In this document: piece by piece, positions 12,001-18,000 of the stretch | How positions within the stretch are numbered: the first letter of the stretch is position 1 | Layout of the letters: every line of letters begins with the position of its first letter | Source: a virus | Taxonomy: Duplodnaviria > Heunggongvirae > Uroviricota > Caudoviricetes | IMG/VR virus record: IMGVR_UViG_637000105_000002 | Length of the DNA: 62,656 nucleotides | Reading direction: 5' to 3' (one strand) | Made by a program: the position numbers

Positions 12001-15000
12001 CAGCCGTGTGCGTGTTGTGGTAAGCCAGCCGACGATCCCCATCACCTGATTGGTCATGGTCAGGGCGGAATGGGGACAAAATCTCACGATATTTTCACGC
12101 TACCGCTGTGTCGGGAGCATCACAACGAGCTTCATGCGGATCCGCTGGCGTTCGAAGAAAAGCATGGTTCTCAGGTTGATTTAATTTTTCGTTTTCTTGA
12201 TCACGCCTTTGCAACTGGCGTGCTTGGGTAAAAGAGGTGACTGATGCTCATAGATTTGGTTTTACCTTACCCGCCGACGGTGAACACTTACTGGCGACGC
12301 CGTGGCAGCACATATTTTATCTCGGAGGAGGGAAAGCGTTATCGCCGGGCTGTGGCGCTTATTGTTCGCCAGCAGCAGCTGAAATTAAGCCTGTCCGGAA
12401 GGCTGGCGATAAAGGTGATTGCAGAGCCACCGGATAAGCGTCGTCGCGACCTGGACAATATCCTGAAAGCACCGCTGGATGCGCTGACGCATGCGGGAGT
12501 GTTAATGGACGATGAGCAGTTTGATGAAATCAATATCGTTCGTGGTCAGCCAGTATCTGGTGGACGTCTGGGGGTGAAGATTTACCCCATAATGCATTAA
12601 GAGCAGGTCAAAAAATGAAACTGGAAGATTTACCGAAATACTACTCCCCAAAATCCCCTGGCCTGACCGATGCATCGGCCTCAACGTCAAAAGATGCGCT
12701 GAGTATCACTGATGTGATGGCCGCGCAGGGCATGACACAGAATCGGGCTGAGATGGGTTTTTCTGCGTTCCTGGGGAAAATGGGCATCAGTATGAATGAC
12801 AGGGCGCGGGCAACAGAATTACTGGCAGATTATGCACTCAGTCGGTGCGATCGTGTGGCGGCGTTGAGAAAACTTCCGGCAGAAATAAAACCGGTAGTGA
12901 TGCGCATTATGGCTTCGTACGCTTTTGAGGATTATGCCCGCAGCGCAGCGAGTAAAAAGCAGTGCCCTTGTTGCTATGGGGAAAAATTTATTGAAAGCGT
13001 AGTTTTTACAAACAAGGTCCAGTATCCGGATGGTAAGCCGCCGGTATGGGCAAAGTGTACGAAAGGTGTGTATCCGTCTTACTGGGAAGAATGGAAAAAA
13101 GTCAGGGAGGTGGTAAAAGTTGCCTGTCCGGAGTGTGGCGGAAAGGGTGAGGTTTCCACCGCCTGTAAGGATTGCCGTGGGCGTGGTGTCGCCATTCACC
13201 GTGAAGAGTCGGTAAAACGTGGTATGCCTGTTATCAGAGACTGCCAGCGTTGTGGTGGTCGTGGCTATGAAAGACTACCATCAACGGAGGTATTTAATGC
13301 TATATGCGAGGTGACAAACCAGATAACACGCGCGTCATGGGAAAAAACAGTTAAGAAATTCTATGATGCGCTGGTGACCCGGTTTGATATTGAAGAAGCA
13401 TGGGCTGAGCGGCAGTTAAAAAAGGTAACTAGGTAACAAGGTTGATTTTTCCGGAATCTGTGGTAAATTCGTCATAACGATGGGCTTTTTATGCCTGACG
13501 TTAGAAGAGTTTCTACAACCCGCCGCCGAGCGGGTTTTTTATTGTGCACAGAAAACCCCCAGCTAGGCTGGGGGTTCCGGAAAGCTTTCAGCTTTGAGCC
13601 AGTTATTAAAACCCCTTTTGATTTGTTAAAACACCTTGCGGTCTGGCAACTGCAAGTGTCAAACAAGAAATCAAAAGGGGGTCCCAATGGGGAACGAAAA
13701 GAGCTTAGCGCACACCCGATGGAACTGTAAATATCACATAGTATTTGCGCCAAAATACCGAAGACAGGTGTTCTACAGAGAGAAGCGTAGAGCAATAGGC
13801 TGTATTTTGAGAAAGCTGTGTGAGTGGAAAAGTGTACGGATTCTGGAAGCTGAATGCTGTGCAGATCATATCCATATGCTTGTGGAGATCCCGCCCAAAA
13901 TGAGCGTATCAGGCTTTATGGGATATCTGAAAGGGAAAAGCAGTCTGATGCCTTACGAGCAGTTTGGTGATTTGAAATTCAAATACAGGAACAGGGAGTT
14001 CTGGTGCAGAGGGTATTACGTCGATACGGTGGGTAAGAACACGGCGAAGATACAGGATTACATAAAGCACCAGCTTGAAGAGGATAAAATGGGAGAGCAG
14101 TTATCGATTCCCTATCCGGGCAGCCCGTTTACGGGCCGTAAGTAACGAAGTTGGATGCAAATGTCAGATCGTGTGCGCCTGTTAGGGCGCGGCTGGTAAG
14201 AGAGCCTTATAGGCGCATTTGAAAAACCTCCGGCTATGCCGGAGGATATTTATTGCGGAATTAATTACGGACCGTTATTATTCTGCTCCCGGCCCTTTAG
14301 CTCAGTGGTGAGAGCGAGCGACTCATAATCGCCAGGTCGCTGGTTCAAATCCAGCAAGGGCCACCATCACATACCGCCATTAGCTCATCAGGAAAGAGCG
14401 CCAGCTTTCGAAGCTGGTTGCGCGGAGTTCGGGTCCCCGATGGTGGTCCATTATCGGTATTCTGCGTTGTTAGCTCAGCAGGACAGAGCAATTGCCTTCT
14501 AAGCAATCGGTCAGTGGTTCGAATCCAGTACAACGCGCCATATTCATTCTTCCAGATTCCTTCCGGCAGAGCCTTATACTGGAATATACCTGGCTCAGGA
14601 TATTGTTGAAAATATTATATGTTTGTCAAAAATAAAAGTTCTGTTAAGTATTGATTGAGTGTTTGTTATACGGTCTAATGGTTTTTTCAGCATTAAATAT
14701 TTATCATTCATATGGTGTGGGTAGAGTGAATATTGATGAGGCGTCGGGGTGTTTCATCCTTAGGCAGCGTATTGATATAGTCAATGCAGCACGAGCAAAG
14801 GCCTTCAGCCGTTTGACAGTTTTGTTTTGTACTCCTGATCGTCTTTCGGGAAGAGACGTTATTATTCTGAATAGTGATGCTATACAGAGGGTTAGCGATG
14901 AGTTCATGGTTGCTAATTCAGAATTATTTGCTCTTGTTCAGGAGTACAACAGAATAGCCAGGACCTGTGGTATGGATGAACTTCGGATTACTCATCTGGG

Positions 15001-18000
15001 GTAGATACATATCTGGATTATCACCTGTTACGGTAAAAAGTGATTGCTTACTGTTTTTGTGAATGGCATTGCAGCAGCCGGATAATGTCAGTGCTGGCTG
15101 ACGGTGTGCTGGTGGCAGGTGTGGTGGTTGTTGCTTTTCCGTTGCTGAAAAAGAAAACGCCAGACTGTTAGCCGGGTATCAGTTAGCGGGAGAAATTTTT
15201 AAATACTTCACAATTCAGGCGGTTGACTGTTGTCTGGTTTGCGGGGAGTTTGTTAAAAGAAACTGGCATGGTGAATCCCCCTGTGCGGAGGGGCAATCAG
15301 CGAGTAGGTATATGGGATAATCGCGGATTCAGGTGCTGGTACTGAATTCACCGGGAGGCACCCGGCACCATGCAATGGCACATAGCGCCACTCTCCAGCC
15401 CCTCTCCGGAGGGGCTGTTTATATTGATTTTGTCAGATGTGAGTAAACTCCTTATGGACTTTGTTGTTTTAGTCCATAAGGACATATTTGCAGAGTGCAA
15501 CGGTTATTAAAGCATTCATTCAATACGTTATCTGTATTTGTAGGGCATTCCTGGCTGTTTTTGATTAAATTCCAGAATGTTTTATTGAATGGTACTACGT
15601 TGTAAATGGTTACAGGTAGCACTTTGTTATTGAGCATGATGCCTGTGTGAGTCAGTGTAAATATACTTTCAGGAGGTAAGAAAGCATCCGATTGATACCA
15701 GATTATTAATTTTATTTTACTCCATATGACTGAAAAAGATATTCCGCATGATGGCTGGATAACTGTATCAATCACAATCCACTTCATTTGGTTTCCTTGT
15801 TTATGCCTTGCTGGTGATGTCCTGAAAAGTATAAATGATATTTTTGAATGTAAACCATAGAGCAGAATTATTTTTCTGATGTTGTTTATTGTTTATTTAA
15901 ATGCAGGGTGGTTTATATCTCGTCTTGTAGTTTATCCATGCATATCTGCTTGATAATCAGGTTTTTATTTAAGGTATAGTTTTGTGTTTTTTCTGTATTA
16001 CATGTCAGGTATTTTAAAGAATTATTTTTCAGATAGTGGAAAGAACCATGGCATTTAAACACTATGATGTTGTCAGGGCGGCGCCGCCGTCAGATCTTGC
16101 GGAAAAGCTGACACATAAACTGAAAGAGGGCTGGCAGCCGTTTGGTAGTCCGGTGGCCATAACCCCTTATACCCTGATGCAGGCGATTGCAGCAGAAGGT
16201 GATGTGGTGGTCAGTGGTGCAACTGAGCCGGAGTGATACTACGTCATCGTACTGGCCCGGCATTCCAGGCCATAAAAGACAGTCTGGCAGTGGGACTAAA
16301 TGCACTGACGCTGACGGATATTACCAAAAATGCAACGTATGGCGTTGAGATAGAAAGTCTGGCGCTGGAGATAAATGCACCGGCATCATCATAAAAAGTG
16401 AGCCAGTCAAATGGAAGGTATCGTTAAACTCACCGGTAGTGTCAGTGGGTCGTCTGAGACGCTTGCATGAGTTATCAGAGCCATCAGTAGTTAACTGGTG
16501 GCTTTTTTATTGTTGTCAGCTTCCGGATAACGGGAGACGGGGTATGGACCAGATGGAAAAAATCACAACAGGTGTGTCATACACCACGTCAGCGGTGGGA
16601 ACGGGCTACTGGTTCCTGCAGTTGCTGGACAGGGTTTCCCCGTCTCAGTGGGCGGCAATAGGCGTGCTGGGAAGTCTGCTGTTTGGGCTGCTGACATATC
16701 TGACTAACCTGTATTTCAAAATCAGAGAGGACCGTCGTAAGGCGGCACGGGGAGAGTAATTCAATGACTCAAAACTATGAACTGATTGTGAAAGGGATCC
16801 GCAATTTTGAGAATACAGTTACGGTAACTTTAGCGTTACGGGACAAAAAACGCTTTGACGGTGAAATTTTAGACCTGGACATCTCGCTGGACCGTGTTGA
16901 AGGTGCCGCGCTGGAGTTTTATGAGGCAGCAGCCAGAAGGAGCATCAGACAGGTCTTCCTGGATGTTGCTGCCGGGTTATGTGAAGGGGATGAGCAGTCA
17001 CCGGAAAAGCGCCCCATAATTTTAGAGGCGCAGGGTGTGTGGATAACCTACAAAGGAAAACTGCCGGGAAGAATTACTGGTTCACTGAAGACTCCGCCGA
17101 AATGGTAATTTCACCAGCATATTTTTCTTCCAGTAATACCGCCAGCCACTTGAAAGAATTTTGTTGTTGCTGGGACCATTTGGGGTTGAGTGATTCAAGC
17201 TGGAGCGATGCCAGTGTTGGTTGCATTTGTTCCTTGGGAATTGAGAATGCCAGATATGAAAATGCGACAGTAAGGGCATTTACATCATCCCGAAGCTTGG
17301 AAATGCAGTCGAGCAACTCCTGTAGAGAAATGGTGCTATTGTCCATAAACAATCCTCTCTATTGTATTTAACTATTCCTTGCCTGATTCAACAGGCCGGG
17401 ACAGATAAACATATCCAGGGTTCAGAAACCGATAAATCCTGATAAATATCCATGAACGCAAAAATCAGATACGGCCTGTCGGCTGCCGTTCTGGCACTGA
17501 TTGCCGTCGGTGCGCCTGCGCCTGATATTCTCGACCAGTTTCTGGATGAAAAAGAAGGTAACCACACAACGGCATACCGCGATGGTTCCGGTATATGGAC
17601 CATCTGTCGTGGTGCCACAATGGTGGATGGTAAGCCCGTCATACCGGGAATGAGGCTGTCGAAGGAAAAATGCGACCAGGTTAACGCTATTGAACGTGAT
17701 AAGGCGCTGGCATGGGTGGAGCGCAATATTAAAGTACCACTGACCGAACCACAGAAAGCGGGTATAGCGTCATTCTGTCCCTATAACATTGGCCCCGGTA
17801 AGTGTTTCCCGTCGACGTTTTATAAGCGGCTGAATGCCGGTGATCGTAAGGGCGCATGCGAGGCGATTCGCTGGTGGATAAAAGATGGTGGGCGCGATTG
17901 CCGCATACGTTCAAATAACTGCTATGGACAGGTTATTCGTCGTGACCAGGAAAGCGCATTAGCCTGTTGGGGGATAGATCAGTGAGCAGAGTCGCAGCGA

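What the first reader, a model, noticed from the sequence alone, without database searches (positions are those of the whole stretch)
14651..16030. Unknown cargo genes at the tRNA-to-holin position (the Stx locus in Stx phages)
Between the ileZ/argN/argO-like tRNAs and the holin, where Stx phages carry stxAB, this prophage has a 117-aa unknown ORF, a hairpin terminator and a convergent 111-aa Cys-containing ORF inside a strongly AT-rich island with its own upstream region. Both composition and position mark it as horizontally acquired cargo expressed with or independently of late genes.
Basis: partly seen in the sequence, partly recalled or inferred. Interest (0 to 1): 0.5.

Follow-up and report, generated by a model that had tools for sequence, protein, structure and literature searches.

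The report
Prophage iraL locus at Stx slot
The "unknown cargo" is mostly known: it is the published iraL locus of uropathogenic E. coli CFT073 (a stress-sigma-factor stabiliser) beside the prophage small RNA STnc100, plus one real, widespread but unannotated small gene of unknown function.

Summary
Both ORFs, the hairpin and the AT-rich composition (39.8% GC against 50.6%) lie between ileZ/argN/argO-like tRNAs and the holin. This is the slot where Stx phages carry stxAB.

The interpretation "unknown cargo" is only partly right:
- **111-aa ORF (15452-15787, minus strand):** this is iraL (c1429) of E. coli CFT073, a characterised RssB anti-adaptor that stabilises RpoS in log phase. The window is 100% identical to CFT073 here, and the published 5'RACE sequence maps to a start site at 15820.
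- **Hairpin (15396-15417):** this is the terminator of the sRNA STnc100 (15237-15426, 132 bits), not of the 117-aa ORF. STnc100 sits directly after stx2B in Stx2 phages.
a 43-aa DUF3927/TciB-like ORF (15040-15171), remnants of a nanS-p esterase gene (16036-16394), and an IS200 upstream.
- **117-aa ORF:** it is a real gene (dN/dS 0.1-0.35; shifted frames about 1). It probably starts at GTG 14726, giving 92 aa. It is predicted to form a two-helix hairpin and belongs to phrog_2873. It occurs in 1184 of 5426 complete E. coli genomes, yet RefSeq almost never annotates it. Its function is unknown.

The region is a mosaic of two cassettes joined inside STnc100. Interest is low, apart from the unannotated gene.

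The parts
14291..14540 (+). Three tRNA genes (Ile2/CAT, Arg-TCG, Arg-TCT), equivalent to ileZ-argN-argO. They form the left border of the cargo slot.
   Evidence: ARAGORN; RefSeq annotation of CFT073; Rfam tRNA hits; 92.3% identity to ileZ-argN-argO of Stx2a_F451.
14651..15004 (+). The conserved coding core is most likely 14726-15004 (GTG start, 92 aa, called orf92 here). It belongs to phrog_2873 and is predicted to be a two-helix hairpin protein of unknown function. RefSeq does not annotate it.
   Evidence: ORF list. phrog_2873 E 3.8e-69. Homologues at 55% identity keep the frame. dN/dS is 0.35 in frame against 1.16 and 0.92 in the shifted frames. Across six lineages the core gives 0.10-0.31. 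Remote members of 91-95 aa start at query position 26. AF2 gives helices 28-60 and 75-106, with residues 1-23 below pLDDT 50. No feature is annotated under the match in 29 of 30 sampled genomes.
15040..15171 (+). 43-aa DUF3927 / TciB-like small hydrophobic protein. Its usual TerB-like partner gene (tciA) is absent here.
   Evidence: Pfam PF13064 at 95.6 bits against a cutoff of 25; phrog_1470 TciB-like; RefSeq WP_000562553.1. Relatives carry a TerB-like gene immediately upstream. DNA homology to JLK-2012 tciB begins only at 15072.
15237..15426 (+). sRNA gene STnc100 (RF02076).
   Evidence: Rfam 132.4 bits against a gathering score of 47, E 3.7e-30, full length. Terminator scan. Predicted fold with the terminal hairpin. 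The same sRNA lies just after stx2B in Stx2a_F451 at 207.7 bits and is reported 75 nt downstream of stx2 (PMC12370729).
15452..15787 (-). iraL (c1429): an RssB anti-adaptor of the IraM family that stabilises RpoS during logarithmic growth.
   Evidence: 100% DNA identity to CFT073. NCBIfam NF007393 at 162 bits against a cutoff of 121. 62% identity to K-12 IraM. PDB 8TWD IraM E 9e-32. Function shown in PMC4045071. Locus tag c1429.
15788..15920 (-). iraL 5'UTR (33 nt) and sigma-70 promoter region. The start site is at 15820 and a TATACT -10 hexamer lies 7 nt upstream. GC is 29%.
   Evidence: The published 5'RACE sequence ACATCACCAGCAAGGCATAAACAAGGAAACCA is the reverse complement of window 15789-15820. 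The complementing fragment spanned -100 to +33.
16036..16394 (+). Remnants of a nanS-p / SASA sialate esterase gene: the DUF1737 N-terminus (16036-16236) and the C-terminal end (16233-16394). They form the right border of the cargo slot.
   Evidence: Pfam DUF1737. phrog_143 positions 1-58 and 582-632 of 634. RefSeq marks 16048-16233 as a pseudogene. 84-89% identity to the 5' end of nanS genes.
13545..14248 (+). IS200C insertion (STnc490 5'UTR RNA and tnpA) between the Q/tR'-like region and the tRNAs. It is context, not cargo.
   Evidence: Rfam STnc490 at 146 bits; RefSeq tnpA; absent from mEp460 and E. coli ECMA0423 at the same point.
16544..16759 (+). Class II holin, the start of the lysis cassette.
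   Evidence: RefSeq annotation; ORF list.

Best explanation
The interval is the accessory-gene ('moron') slot of a lambdoid prophage of uropathogenic E. coli CFT073, the site where Stx phages carry stxAB. It holds two independently acquired cassettes joined inside the sRNA gene STnc100.

**Right cassette (15208-16035): STnc100 plus iraL.**
- iraL is read leftward, against the late operon, from its own sigma-70 promoter (start site 15820). It is therefore made in the lysogen.
- Published work shows that IraL binds the N-terminal domain of the adaptor RssB and raises the level and stability of RpoS during logarithmic growth. On the established model for these anti-adaptors, it does so by stopping RssB from delivering RpoS to ClpXP.

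**Left cassette (14541-15207): orf92 plus DUF3927.**
- It holds a genuine but unannotated 92-aa gene (orf92) and a 43-aa DUF3927/TciB-like membrane peptide.
- Both point the same way as the late operon. By inference they are transcribed by Q-antiterminated read-through on induction, and possibly from the AT-rich stretch after the tRNAs.
- The STnc100 terminator closes this unit in uninduced cells.

**orf92 function (inferred, low confidence).** It is a soluble two-helix coiled-coil hairpin that acts by binding another protein, probably as a regulatory or host-modulating accessory factor.

**Basis of each claim.**
- Shown here or in print: the identities of iraL, STnc100, DUF3927 and the tRNAs; the mosaic borders; and the coding status of orf92.
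- Inferred: how the plus-strand cassette is transcribed, and everything about orf92 function.
For: - Identity of the window: 100% identity to CFT073 and relatives over 14541-16035. The RefSeq features there are IraM-family anti-adapter, DUF3927 and tRNAs.
- iraL: NF007393 at 162 bits, above the cutoff. 62% identity to K-12 IraM, against 58.9% published. The 5'RACE sequence maps to 15789-15820. RssB binding and RpoS stabilisation are in PMC4045071. Transcript changes with temperature and in a fur mutant are reported.
- STnc100: 132 bits, full length, with a terminator.
- Slot equivalence: Stx2a_F451 reads tRNAs, stx2AB, STnc100, nanS. phi296 reads tRNAs, STnc100, nanS. JLK-2012 reads tRNAs, tciAB, STnc100, yjhS.
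- Mosaic: mEp460 matches 14249-15374 and 640R1 matches 15208-17103.
- orf92 is coding: dN/dS 0.10-0.35 against about 1 in the shifted frames. The family has members of 91-95 aa. All lie downstream of Q and tRNAs in lambdoid prophages of E. coli and Citrobacter.
- orf92 structure: helical hairpin model, pLDDT 70.
Against: - Nothing contradicts the identities of iraL and STnc100.
- No expression data for orf92 were found. A literature search for c1428 gave nothing, and RefSeq-based RNA-seq tables skip the gene.
- The start codon of orf92 is unresolved: TTG 14651, ATG 14678 or GTG 14726. The N-terminal 25 codons give dN/dS 0.6 on only 24 codons.
- No promoter stood out. The consensus scan found no more promoter-like sites than in shuffles (6 against 6.5).
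- The structural model is moderate and rests on a shallow alignment (7 sequences). Fold searches gave only generic helical hairpins with E of 0.1 or higher.
- The window's DUF3927 ORF lacks the tciA partner and the first ~21 codons of JLK-2012 tciB, so it may be a remnant.
Confidence: 0.9

Rival explanations
1. The 117-aa ORF is non-coding filler: a chance ORF in AT-rich spacer DNA, as its absence from RefSeq annotation implies.
For: PGAP does not call it in CFT073 or in 29 of 30 sampled genomes. It has a TTG start with no obvious Shine-Dalgarno sequence. It gives no Pfam, NCBIfam or PADLOC match.
Against: - The frame is kept at 55%, 63% and 38-40% protein identity in other prophages.
- dN/dS is 0.10-0.35, against 1.16 and 0.92 in the shifted frames. 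Third-position identity is 53%, against 69% and 72% at positions 1 and 2.
- It has a dedicated PHROG (E 4e-69).
- Twenty-one representatives were found among 1.8 billion proteins.
- Intact copies dominate the protein clusters (253, 175, 146 and 370 members), while disrupted variants are singletons.
Confidence: 0.05
2. The plus-strand cassette is a decayed remnant of a three-gene module (orf92, TerB-like tciA, DUF3927 tciB). That module acts at the membrane, for example in colicin or tellurite tolerance or in superinfection exclusion. On this reading orf92 is a component of that module rather than a free-standing regulator.
For: orf92 homologues are followed directly by a TerB-like gene and a DUF3927 gene in L009/L010, L012 and Citrobacter braakii L013. 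PHROGs labels the DUF3927 family 'TciB-like inhibition of cell division or resistance to colicin'.
Against: - tciAB occurs without orf92 in JLK-2012.
- orf92 occurs without tciAB in STEC1585.
- orf92 is kept intact in 1184 genomes, many of which lack tciA as here.
- The TciB label is an unverified annotation.
Confidence: 0.15
3. Orf92 is a partner or modulator of prophage-borne YdeO/GadX-like (Psr/PatE-type) AraC regulators. It would feed into acid-resistance and RpoS-linked stress control, together with iraL.
For: A YdeO-like HTH_18 gene lies immediately upstream (22-130 nt, same strand) of orf92 homologues in two divergent contexts: L004/L005, and L009/L010. Psr/PatE regulators of this type are known prophage cargo (PMC10877973).
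Against: - No AraC-like gene lies in this window's slot, nor next to the Citrobacter, L012 or L008 homologues.
- In O157:H7 the psr-like match does not extend into an orf92 homologue.
- The linkage could simply reflect shared use of one insertion slot.
Confidence: 0.12
4. The cargo is a toxin or secreted virulence factor functionally analogous to Stx, as its position might suggest.
For: Only positional: it occupies the stxAB slot.
Against: - There is no similarity to Stx or to any toxin family.
- The conserved core of orf92 has no signal peptide or membrane segment and is predicted all-helical.
- The 111-aa ORF is a cytoplasmic anti-adaptor.
Confidence: 0.02

Closest known systems
IraL of E. 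coli CFT073 (Hryckowian et al. 2014, mBio, PMC4045071)
   Same: It is the same gene. The DNA is 100% identical to CFT073, the ORF has the same 111 aa, the published 5'RACE sequence is present at 15789-15820, and the locus tag is c1429.
   Different: Nothing differs in the gene itself. [quoted passage not shown]
IraM (K-12, b1160) and RssC (Salmonella): RssB anti-adaptors
   Same: Same family (NF007393). IraL is 62% identical to IraM over 107 residues, and the C-terminal Cys pattern is conserved. Both inhibit RssB.
   Different: - Genomic context differs: K-12 iraM lies beside e14.
- Published regulation differs: IraM responds to PhoPQ and low Mg2+, while IraL acts in log phase.
[quoted passage not shown]
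STnc100 (Rfam RF02076), related to the PasD sRNAs of EPEC
   Same: Full-length covariance-model match with a terminal intrinsic terminator. It sits in the same place relative to the tRNAs, nanS and holin as in Stx phages.
   Different: It scores lower than the Stx2-phage copy (132 against 208 bits), with an internal deletion in the variable loop. No AsxR antisense gene lies beside it. Its targets in CFT073 are unknown.
stxAB locus of Stx-converting phages (933W, Sp5, Stx2a_F451)
   Same: Same backbone: Q, then ileZ-argN-argO, then cargo, then STnc100, then nanS-p, then holin.
   Different: The cargo is unrelated to Shiga toxin. A second cassette (iraL) lies on the opposite strand after the sRNA. 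nanS-p carries an internal deletion, and an IS200 sits upstream of the tRNAs.
tciA-tciB (TerB-like plus DUF3927) cassette of phage JLK-2012
   Same: The C-terminal 33 codons of the 43-aa ORF are 93% identical at the DNA level to tciB. Its position between the tRNAs and STnc100 is the same.
   Different: tciA is absent and the 5' end of the small ORF differs. An orf92 gene lies upstream here but not in JLK-2012.
phrog_2873 (phage protein family of unknown function)
   Same: orf92 matches it over its whole 108-position profile (E 3.8e-69).
   Different: The family has no assigned function. More distant members suggest a shorter 92-95-aa protein than the PHROG consensus.

Membership tests
IraM/IraL RssB anti-adaptor family | Sequence match to the curated family model above its cutoff | tested here: met
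   NF007393 at 162 bits against a cutoff of 121. 62% identity to K-12 IraM. PDB 8TWD IraM E 9e-32.
IraM/IraL RssB anti-adaptor family | Identity with the experimentally studied iraL allele and its mapped transcription start | tested here: met
   100% DNA identity to CFT073. The 32-nt 5'RACE sequence from PMC4045071 equals the reverse complement of 15789-15820.
IraM/IraL RssB anti-adaptor family | Binds RssB and stabilises RpoS | not testable with these tools
   Shown experimentally for this gene in PMC4045071 (two-hybrid, co-purification, immunoblots).
STnc100 sRNA (RF02076) | Covariance-model score above the gathering threshold over the full model | tested here: met
   132.4 bits against 47, model positions 1-206.
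STnc100 sRNA (RF02076) | Rho-independent terminator at the 3' end | tested here: met
   Stem 15396-15417 (9 pairs, 7 G-C) followed by TTTATATTGA; present in the minimum-free-energy fold.
STnc100 sRNA (RF02076) | Expressed as a discrete Hfq-associated transcript | not testable with these tools
   Reported for homologues in Salmonella, STEC and EPEC. Not examined for CFT073.
DUF3927 / TciB-like | Pfam PF13064 match above the gathering score | tested here: met
   95.6 bits against 25; phrog_1470 E 7.8e-13.
DUF3927 / TciB-like | Paired with an upstream TerB-like (tciA) gene | tested here: not met
   Only 35 nt separate the orf92 stop (15004) from the DUF3927 start (15040). TerB-like genes are present in L009, L012, L013 and L015.
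phrog_2873 (orf92 family) | Profile match and conserved reading frame under purifying selection | tested here: met
   E 3.8e-69; dN/dS 0.10-0.35.
Stx-locus cargo (toxin) | Position between ileZ-argN-argO and STnc100/nanS-p, downstream of Q | tested here: met
Stx-locus cargo (toxin) | Encodes an AB5 toxin or any recognisable toxin or secreted protein | tested here: not met
   No such match in Pfam, NCBIfam, PHROGs or PADLOC.
NanS-p / SASA esterase | Full-length esterase of about 630 aa with an N-terminal DUF1737 | tested here: not met
   Only profile positions 1-58 and 582-632 of 634 remain, in two short ORFs. RefSeq flags a pseudogene.

The most novel reading that the evidence does not exclude
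orf92 (14726-15004) may be an overlooked lysogenic-conversion gene. It is under purifying selection, occupies the exact stxAB slot in about a fifth of complete E. coli genomes, and is almost never annotated. It could encode a small coiled-coil factor that modulates a host stress or acid-resistance regulator, acting with the neighbouring iraL. Separately, STnc100 may serve as the shared recombination linker and terminator that lets cargo cassettes (stxAB, tciAB, tolA-like, AraC-orf92, iraL) be swapped at this site. iraL read-through may also produce antisense RNA to STnc100.
Probability: 0.15. Interest if true: 0.55.

Novelty: already known. Interest (0 to 1): 0.22.

Why it matters
The main element, iraL, is already a published determinant of RpoS levels in uropathogenic E. 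coli, so re-finding it adds little. Three modest points are new:

- **Placement.** iraL sits in the stx-equivalent accessory slot of a lambdoid prophage, next to STnc100. This explains its patchy spread (27% of complete E. coli genomes) and its AT-rich, promoter-bearing cassette.
- **An unannotated gene.** A conserved, selected 92-aa gene in the same slot is missing from RefSeq annotation in essentially all genomes. RNA-seq and proteomic studies that use those annotations therefore cannot see it.
- **Cassette boundaries.** STnc100 copies mark the cassette borders in this slot across Stx and non-Stx phages. This is a testable idea for how cargo, including stx, is exchanged.

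Tried and rejected
**orf92 function searches that gave nothing usable**
- Pfam gave only a sub-threshold RHIM hit (E 0.09). NCBIfam gave L13 at E 0.15. PADLOC gave nothing.
- Foldseek against PDB and BFVD returned only generic helical hairpins with E of 0.1 or higher: efflux adaptor hairpins, designed helical bundles, prefoldin.
- A profile search of PDB sequences gave GapR/UPF0335 as the best hit at E 0.06, which is not significant.

**Searches for more orf92 contexts**
- The narrower alignment A3 returned only three species: E. coli, Citrobacter braakii, and a 2.7-kb contig binned as Bacillota that looks enterobacterial.

**Link to PsrA/PsrB of O157:H7**
- The AraC-like part of L004 matches O157 genomes at about 78% identity, but the match stops before the orf92 homologue. 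A general Psr-orf92 operon is therefore not supported.

**Literature**
- A search for the old locus tag c1428 found nothing.

**Rejected ideas**
- The hairpin is not the terminator of the 117-aa ORF. It lies 392 nt downstream, inside an Rfam-defined sRNA.
- The hairpin is not a bidirectional terminator for iraL. There is no T-run on the minus strand.
- The short ORFs 15726-15860 (+), 15913-16062 (-) and 15253-15381 (-) are not genes. They have no family matches, and the last lies antisense within STnc100.

Full report
**1. What is in the sequence**

- ORFs lie at 14651-15004 (+, 117 aa, TTG start) and 15452-15787 (-, 111 aa).
- A strong hairpin with a T-run lies at 15396-15417 on the + strand.
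- Three tRNAs lie at 14291-14540.
- The lysis cassette begins at 16544.
- The interval 14651-16030 has 39.8% GC against 50.6% for the window. Only 0.2% of equally long windows are as AT-rich.
- The low GC is not uniform. The post-tRNA spacer has 32%, and the iraL coding region and its upstream stretch have 35% and 29%. The middle part (DUF3927 at 49%, STnc100 at 55%) is ordinary.

**2. Origin of the window**

The stretch 14541-16035 is 100% identical to E. coli CFT073 and many other extraintestinal strains. Parts of it occur in 2860 of 5426 complete E. coli genomes, and the whole block in 862.

RefSeq annotates this region of CFT073 in the following order:
- an antitermination protein (Q);
- IS200C tnpA;
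- tRNA-Ile, tRNA-Arg, tRNA-Arg;
- a DUF3927 protein;
- a small pseudogene;
- "anti-adapter protein IraM";
- a DUF1737 pseudogene;
- a short hypothetical protein;
- the holin.

**3. The 111-aa ORF is iraL**

- It scores 162 bits against NCBIfam NF007393 (cutoff 121).
- It is 62% identical to K-12 IraM, and it matches the solved IraM structure 8TWD (E 9e-32).
- Hryckowian et al. 2014 (PMC4045071) described IraL in CFT073. It is an RssB anti-adaptor, 58.9% identical to IraM, located on the potB island.
- They showed that IraL raises the level and stability of RpoS in logarithmic phase. [quoted passage not shown]
- Their 5'RACE sequence (ACATCACCAGCAAGGCATAAACAAGGAAACCA) is exactly the reverse complement of window 15789-15820. 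This puts the start site at 15820 and gives a 33-nt leader, which matches the "+33" of their complementing fragment. A TATACT hexamer lies 7 nt upstream.
- Later papers give the locus tag c1429. They report induction at 37 °C and in a fur mutant.
- iraL with its promoter is present in 1445 of 5426 complete genomes.

This ORF is therefore neither unknown nor silent.

**4. The hairpin belongs to STnc100**

- Rfam places STnc100 (RF02076) at 15237-15426 (+) with 132.4 bits (gathering score 47, E 3.7e-30). The match is full length, and the hairpin is its terminator.
- The same sRNA lies directly after stx2B in Stx2a_F451 (207.7 bits, with AsxR beside it). A report places it 75 nt downstream of the stx2 operon (PMC12370729).
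- A 2026 preprint relates it to the PasD sRNAs and notes its frequent presence in this part of prophages.

**5. Slot equivalence with the Stx locus**

| Phage or prophage | Order of elements |
|---|---|
| Stx2a_F451 | Q, ileZ-argN-argO, stx2A-stx2B, STnc100, (IS), SASA/nanS esterase |
| phi296 | tRNAs, STnc100, NanS, holin (no cargo) |
| JLK-2012 | tRNAs, tciA-tciB, STnc100, yjhS, holin |
| This window | tRNAs, orf117/orf92, DUF3927, STnc100, iraL (-), nanS remnants, holin |

The plus-strand cassette sits exactly where stxAB sits. iraL occupies a second position, between the sRNA and the esterase gene.

The two short ORFs at 16036-16236 and 16233-16394 match positions 1-58 and 582-632 of the 634-position NanS-type PHROG. 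The esterase gene therefore carries a large internal deletion.

**6. Mosaic structure**

- mEp460 shares 12601-13544 and 14249-15374 at 97-99% identity.
- vB_EcoS-640R1 shares 15208-17103 at 97% identity.
- The two homology blocks overlap only within STnc100. The locus is therefore two cassettes joined in the sRNA gene.
- Related prophages carry one STnc100 copy after each cassette: four copies in STEC1585 and two in 640R1.
- That STnc100 acts as a recombination linker is my inference.

**7. The 117-aa ORF is a real gene, probably shorter**

*Family and frame*
- RefSeq does not annotate it in CFT073, nor in 29 of 30 sampled genomes among the 1184 that carry it.
- It matches phrog_2873 (E 3.8e-69).
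- Homologues at 55% identity keep the frame.

*Selection*
- Against the 55% homologue (L004), dN/dS is 0.35 in frame. It is 1.16 and 0.92 in the two shifted frames.
- Third-position identity is 53%, against 69% and 72% at positions 1 and 2.
- Across six lineages the 92-codon core gives 0.10-0.31.

*Likely start*
- An exhaustive profile search found only 21 representatives. The full-length remote ones are 91-95 aa and align from query position 26.
- Several lineages, including the window, have GTG at that point.
- AlphaFold gives two long helices (28-60 and 75-106) at moderate confidence, with residues 1-23 disordered.
- I therefore take 14726-15004 (92 aa) as the likely gene, with 14678 and 14651 as alternative starts.

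*Function*
- No function could be assigned. Pfam, NCBIfam and PADLOC have no model for it.
- Fold searches returned only generic hairpins.
- The best PDB profile hit (GapR, E 0.06) is not significant.

**8. Genomic context of orf92 relatives**

- All lie downstream of Q and tRNAs in lambdoid prophages.
- In two divergent contexts a YdeO/GadX-like AraC regulator lies immediately upstream.
- In three contexts a TerB-like gene and a DUF3927 gene follow.
- The window has neither the regulator nor the TerB-like gene. Its 43-aa DUF3927 ORF shares only its last 33 codons with JLK-2012 tciB.
- In O157:H7 the psr-like regulator genes are not followed by an orf92 homologue.
- These associations give two weak functional hypotheses: a partner of the AraC regulator, or a component of a TerB/DUF3927 module. 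Neither is compelling.

**9. How the locus most likely works**

*Shown in print*
- iraL is transcribed from its own promoter in the lysogen.
- IraL sequesters RssB, so RpoS escapes ClpXP during growth.

*Inferred*
- orf92, DUF3927 and STnc100 point the same way as the late operon, so Q-modified polymerase would read through them on induction.
- In uninduced cells any transcription from the AT-rich post-tRNA stretch would end at the STnc100 terminator.
- No minus-strand terminator follows iraL, so its transcript may extend antisense into STnc100.

**10. Verdict**

The centrepiece is an already characterised gene, and the hairpin is a known sRNA's terminator. What remains new is small: an unannotated but selected 92-aa gene of unknown function in the stx slot, and the recurring role of STnc100 as a cassette border.

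Noticed in passing
window 13545-14248: An IS200C copy (STnc490 RNA at 13554-13677, tnpA at 13687-14145) is inserted just after a tR'-like hairpin (13517-13536), between the Q gene and the tRNAs. It is absent at the same point in phage mEp460 and in E. coli ECMA0423. It may affect late-operon read-through.
   Followed up: partly
window 16036-16394: The DUF1737 ORF and the following 53-aa ORF are the N- and C-terminal ends of a NanS-p/SASA sialate esterase gene that has lost about 520 internal codons.
   Followed up: partly
L005 4575-7256; L003 2561-3218; L007 3530-3735: STnc100 copies follow each cargo cassette in related prophages: four in STEC1585, two in vB_EcoS-640R1, and one after stx2B. 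The mosaic breakpoints in the window fall inside STnc100. This suggests the sRNA gene doubles as a recombination linker.
   Followed up: partly
window 15256-15381 (-): The RefSeq pseudogene 'hypothetical protein, incomplete' lies entirely antisense within STnc100 and has no family match. It is probably a spurious call.
   Followed up: partly
window 15380-15452 (-): No intrinsic terminator follows the iraL stop codon on the minus strand. The iraL transcript may therefore read antisense through STnc100.
   Followed up: no
window 14894-14896 (codon 82 of the 117-aa ORF): The CFT073 allele has Ser where every other homologue examined, including those at 55% identity, has Cys (RVSDEF against RVCDEF).
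   Followed up: no
window 4505-4556 (-) and 10119-10290 (+): A DicF sRNA gene and a sok antitoxin RNA (hok/sok module) lie in the early region of the same prophage.
   Followed up: no
L014 2681-4108 (K-12 iraM region) and window about 19619-20029: K-12 iraM lies next to ycgX (DUF1398). In the window, a ydfO-like DUF1398 gene lies about 4 kb to the right of iraL. This hints that the K-12 iraM locus is a decayed lambdoid late region.
   Followed up: no
window 13437-13544: There are weak, sub-threshold similarities to isrK (E 0.95) and to Trp leader (E 0.038), followed by a terminator hairpin directly downstream of Q. This could be the short pR'-tR' transcript of this phage.
   Followed up: no
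window 19250-20000 and about 9500-10900: Two further AT-rich patches (GC 0.33-0.41) lie elsewhere in the prophage.
   Followed up: no
L012 (JAEWMQ010000075.1): A 2.7-kb contig binned as a Bacillota MAG carries an enterobacterial-type cassette (orf92, TerB-like, DUF3927, holin) with 62% protein identity to the window's gene. It is probably a mis-binned contig.
   Followed up: no
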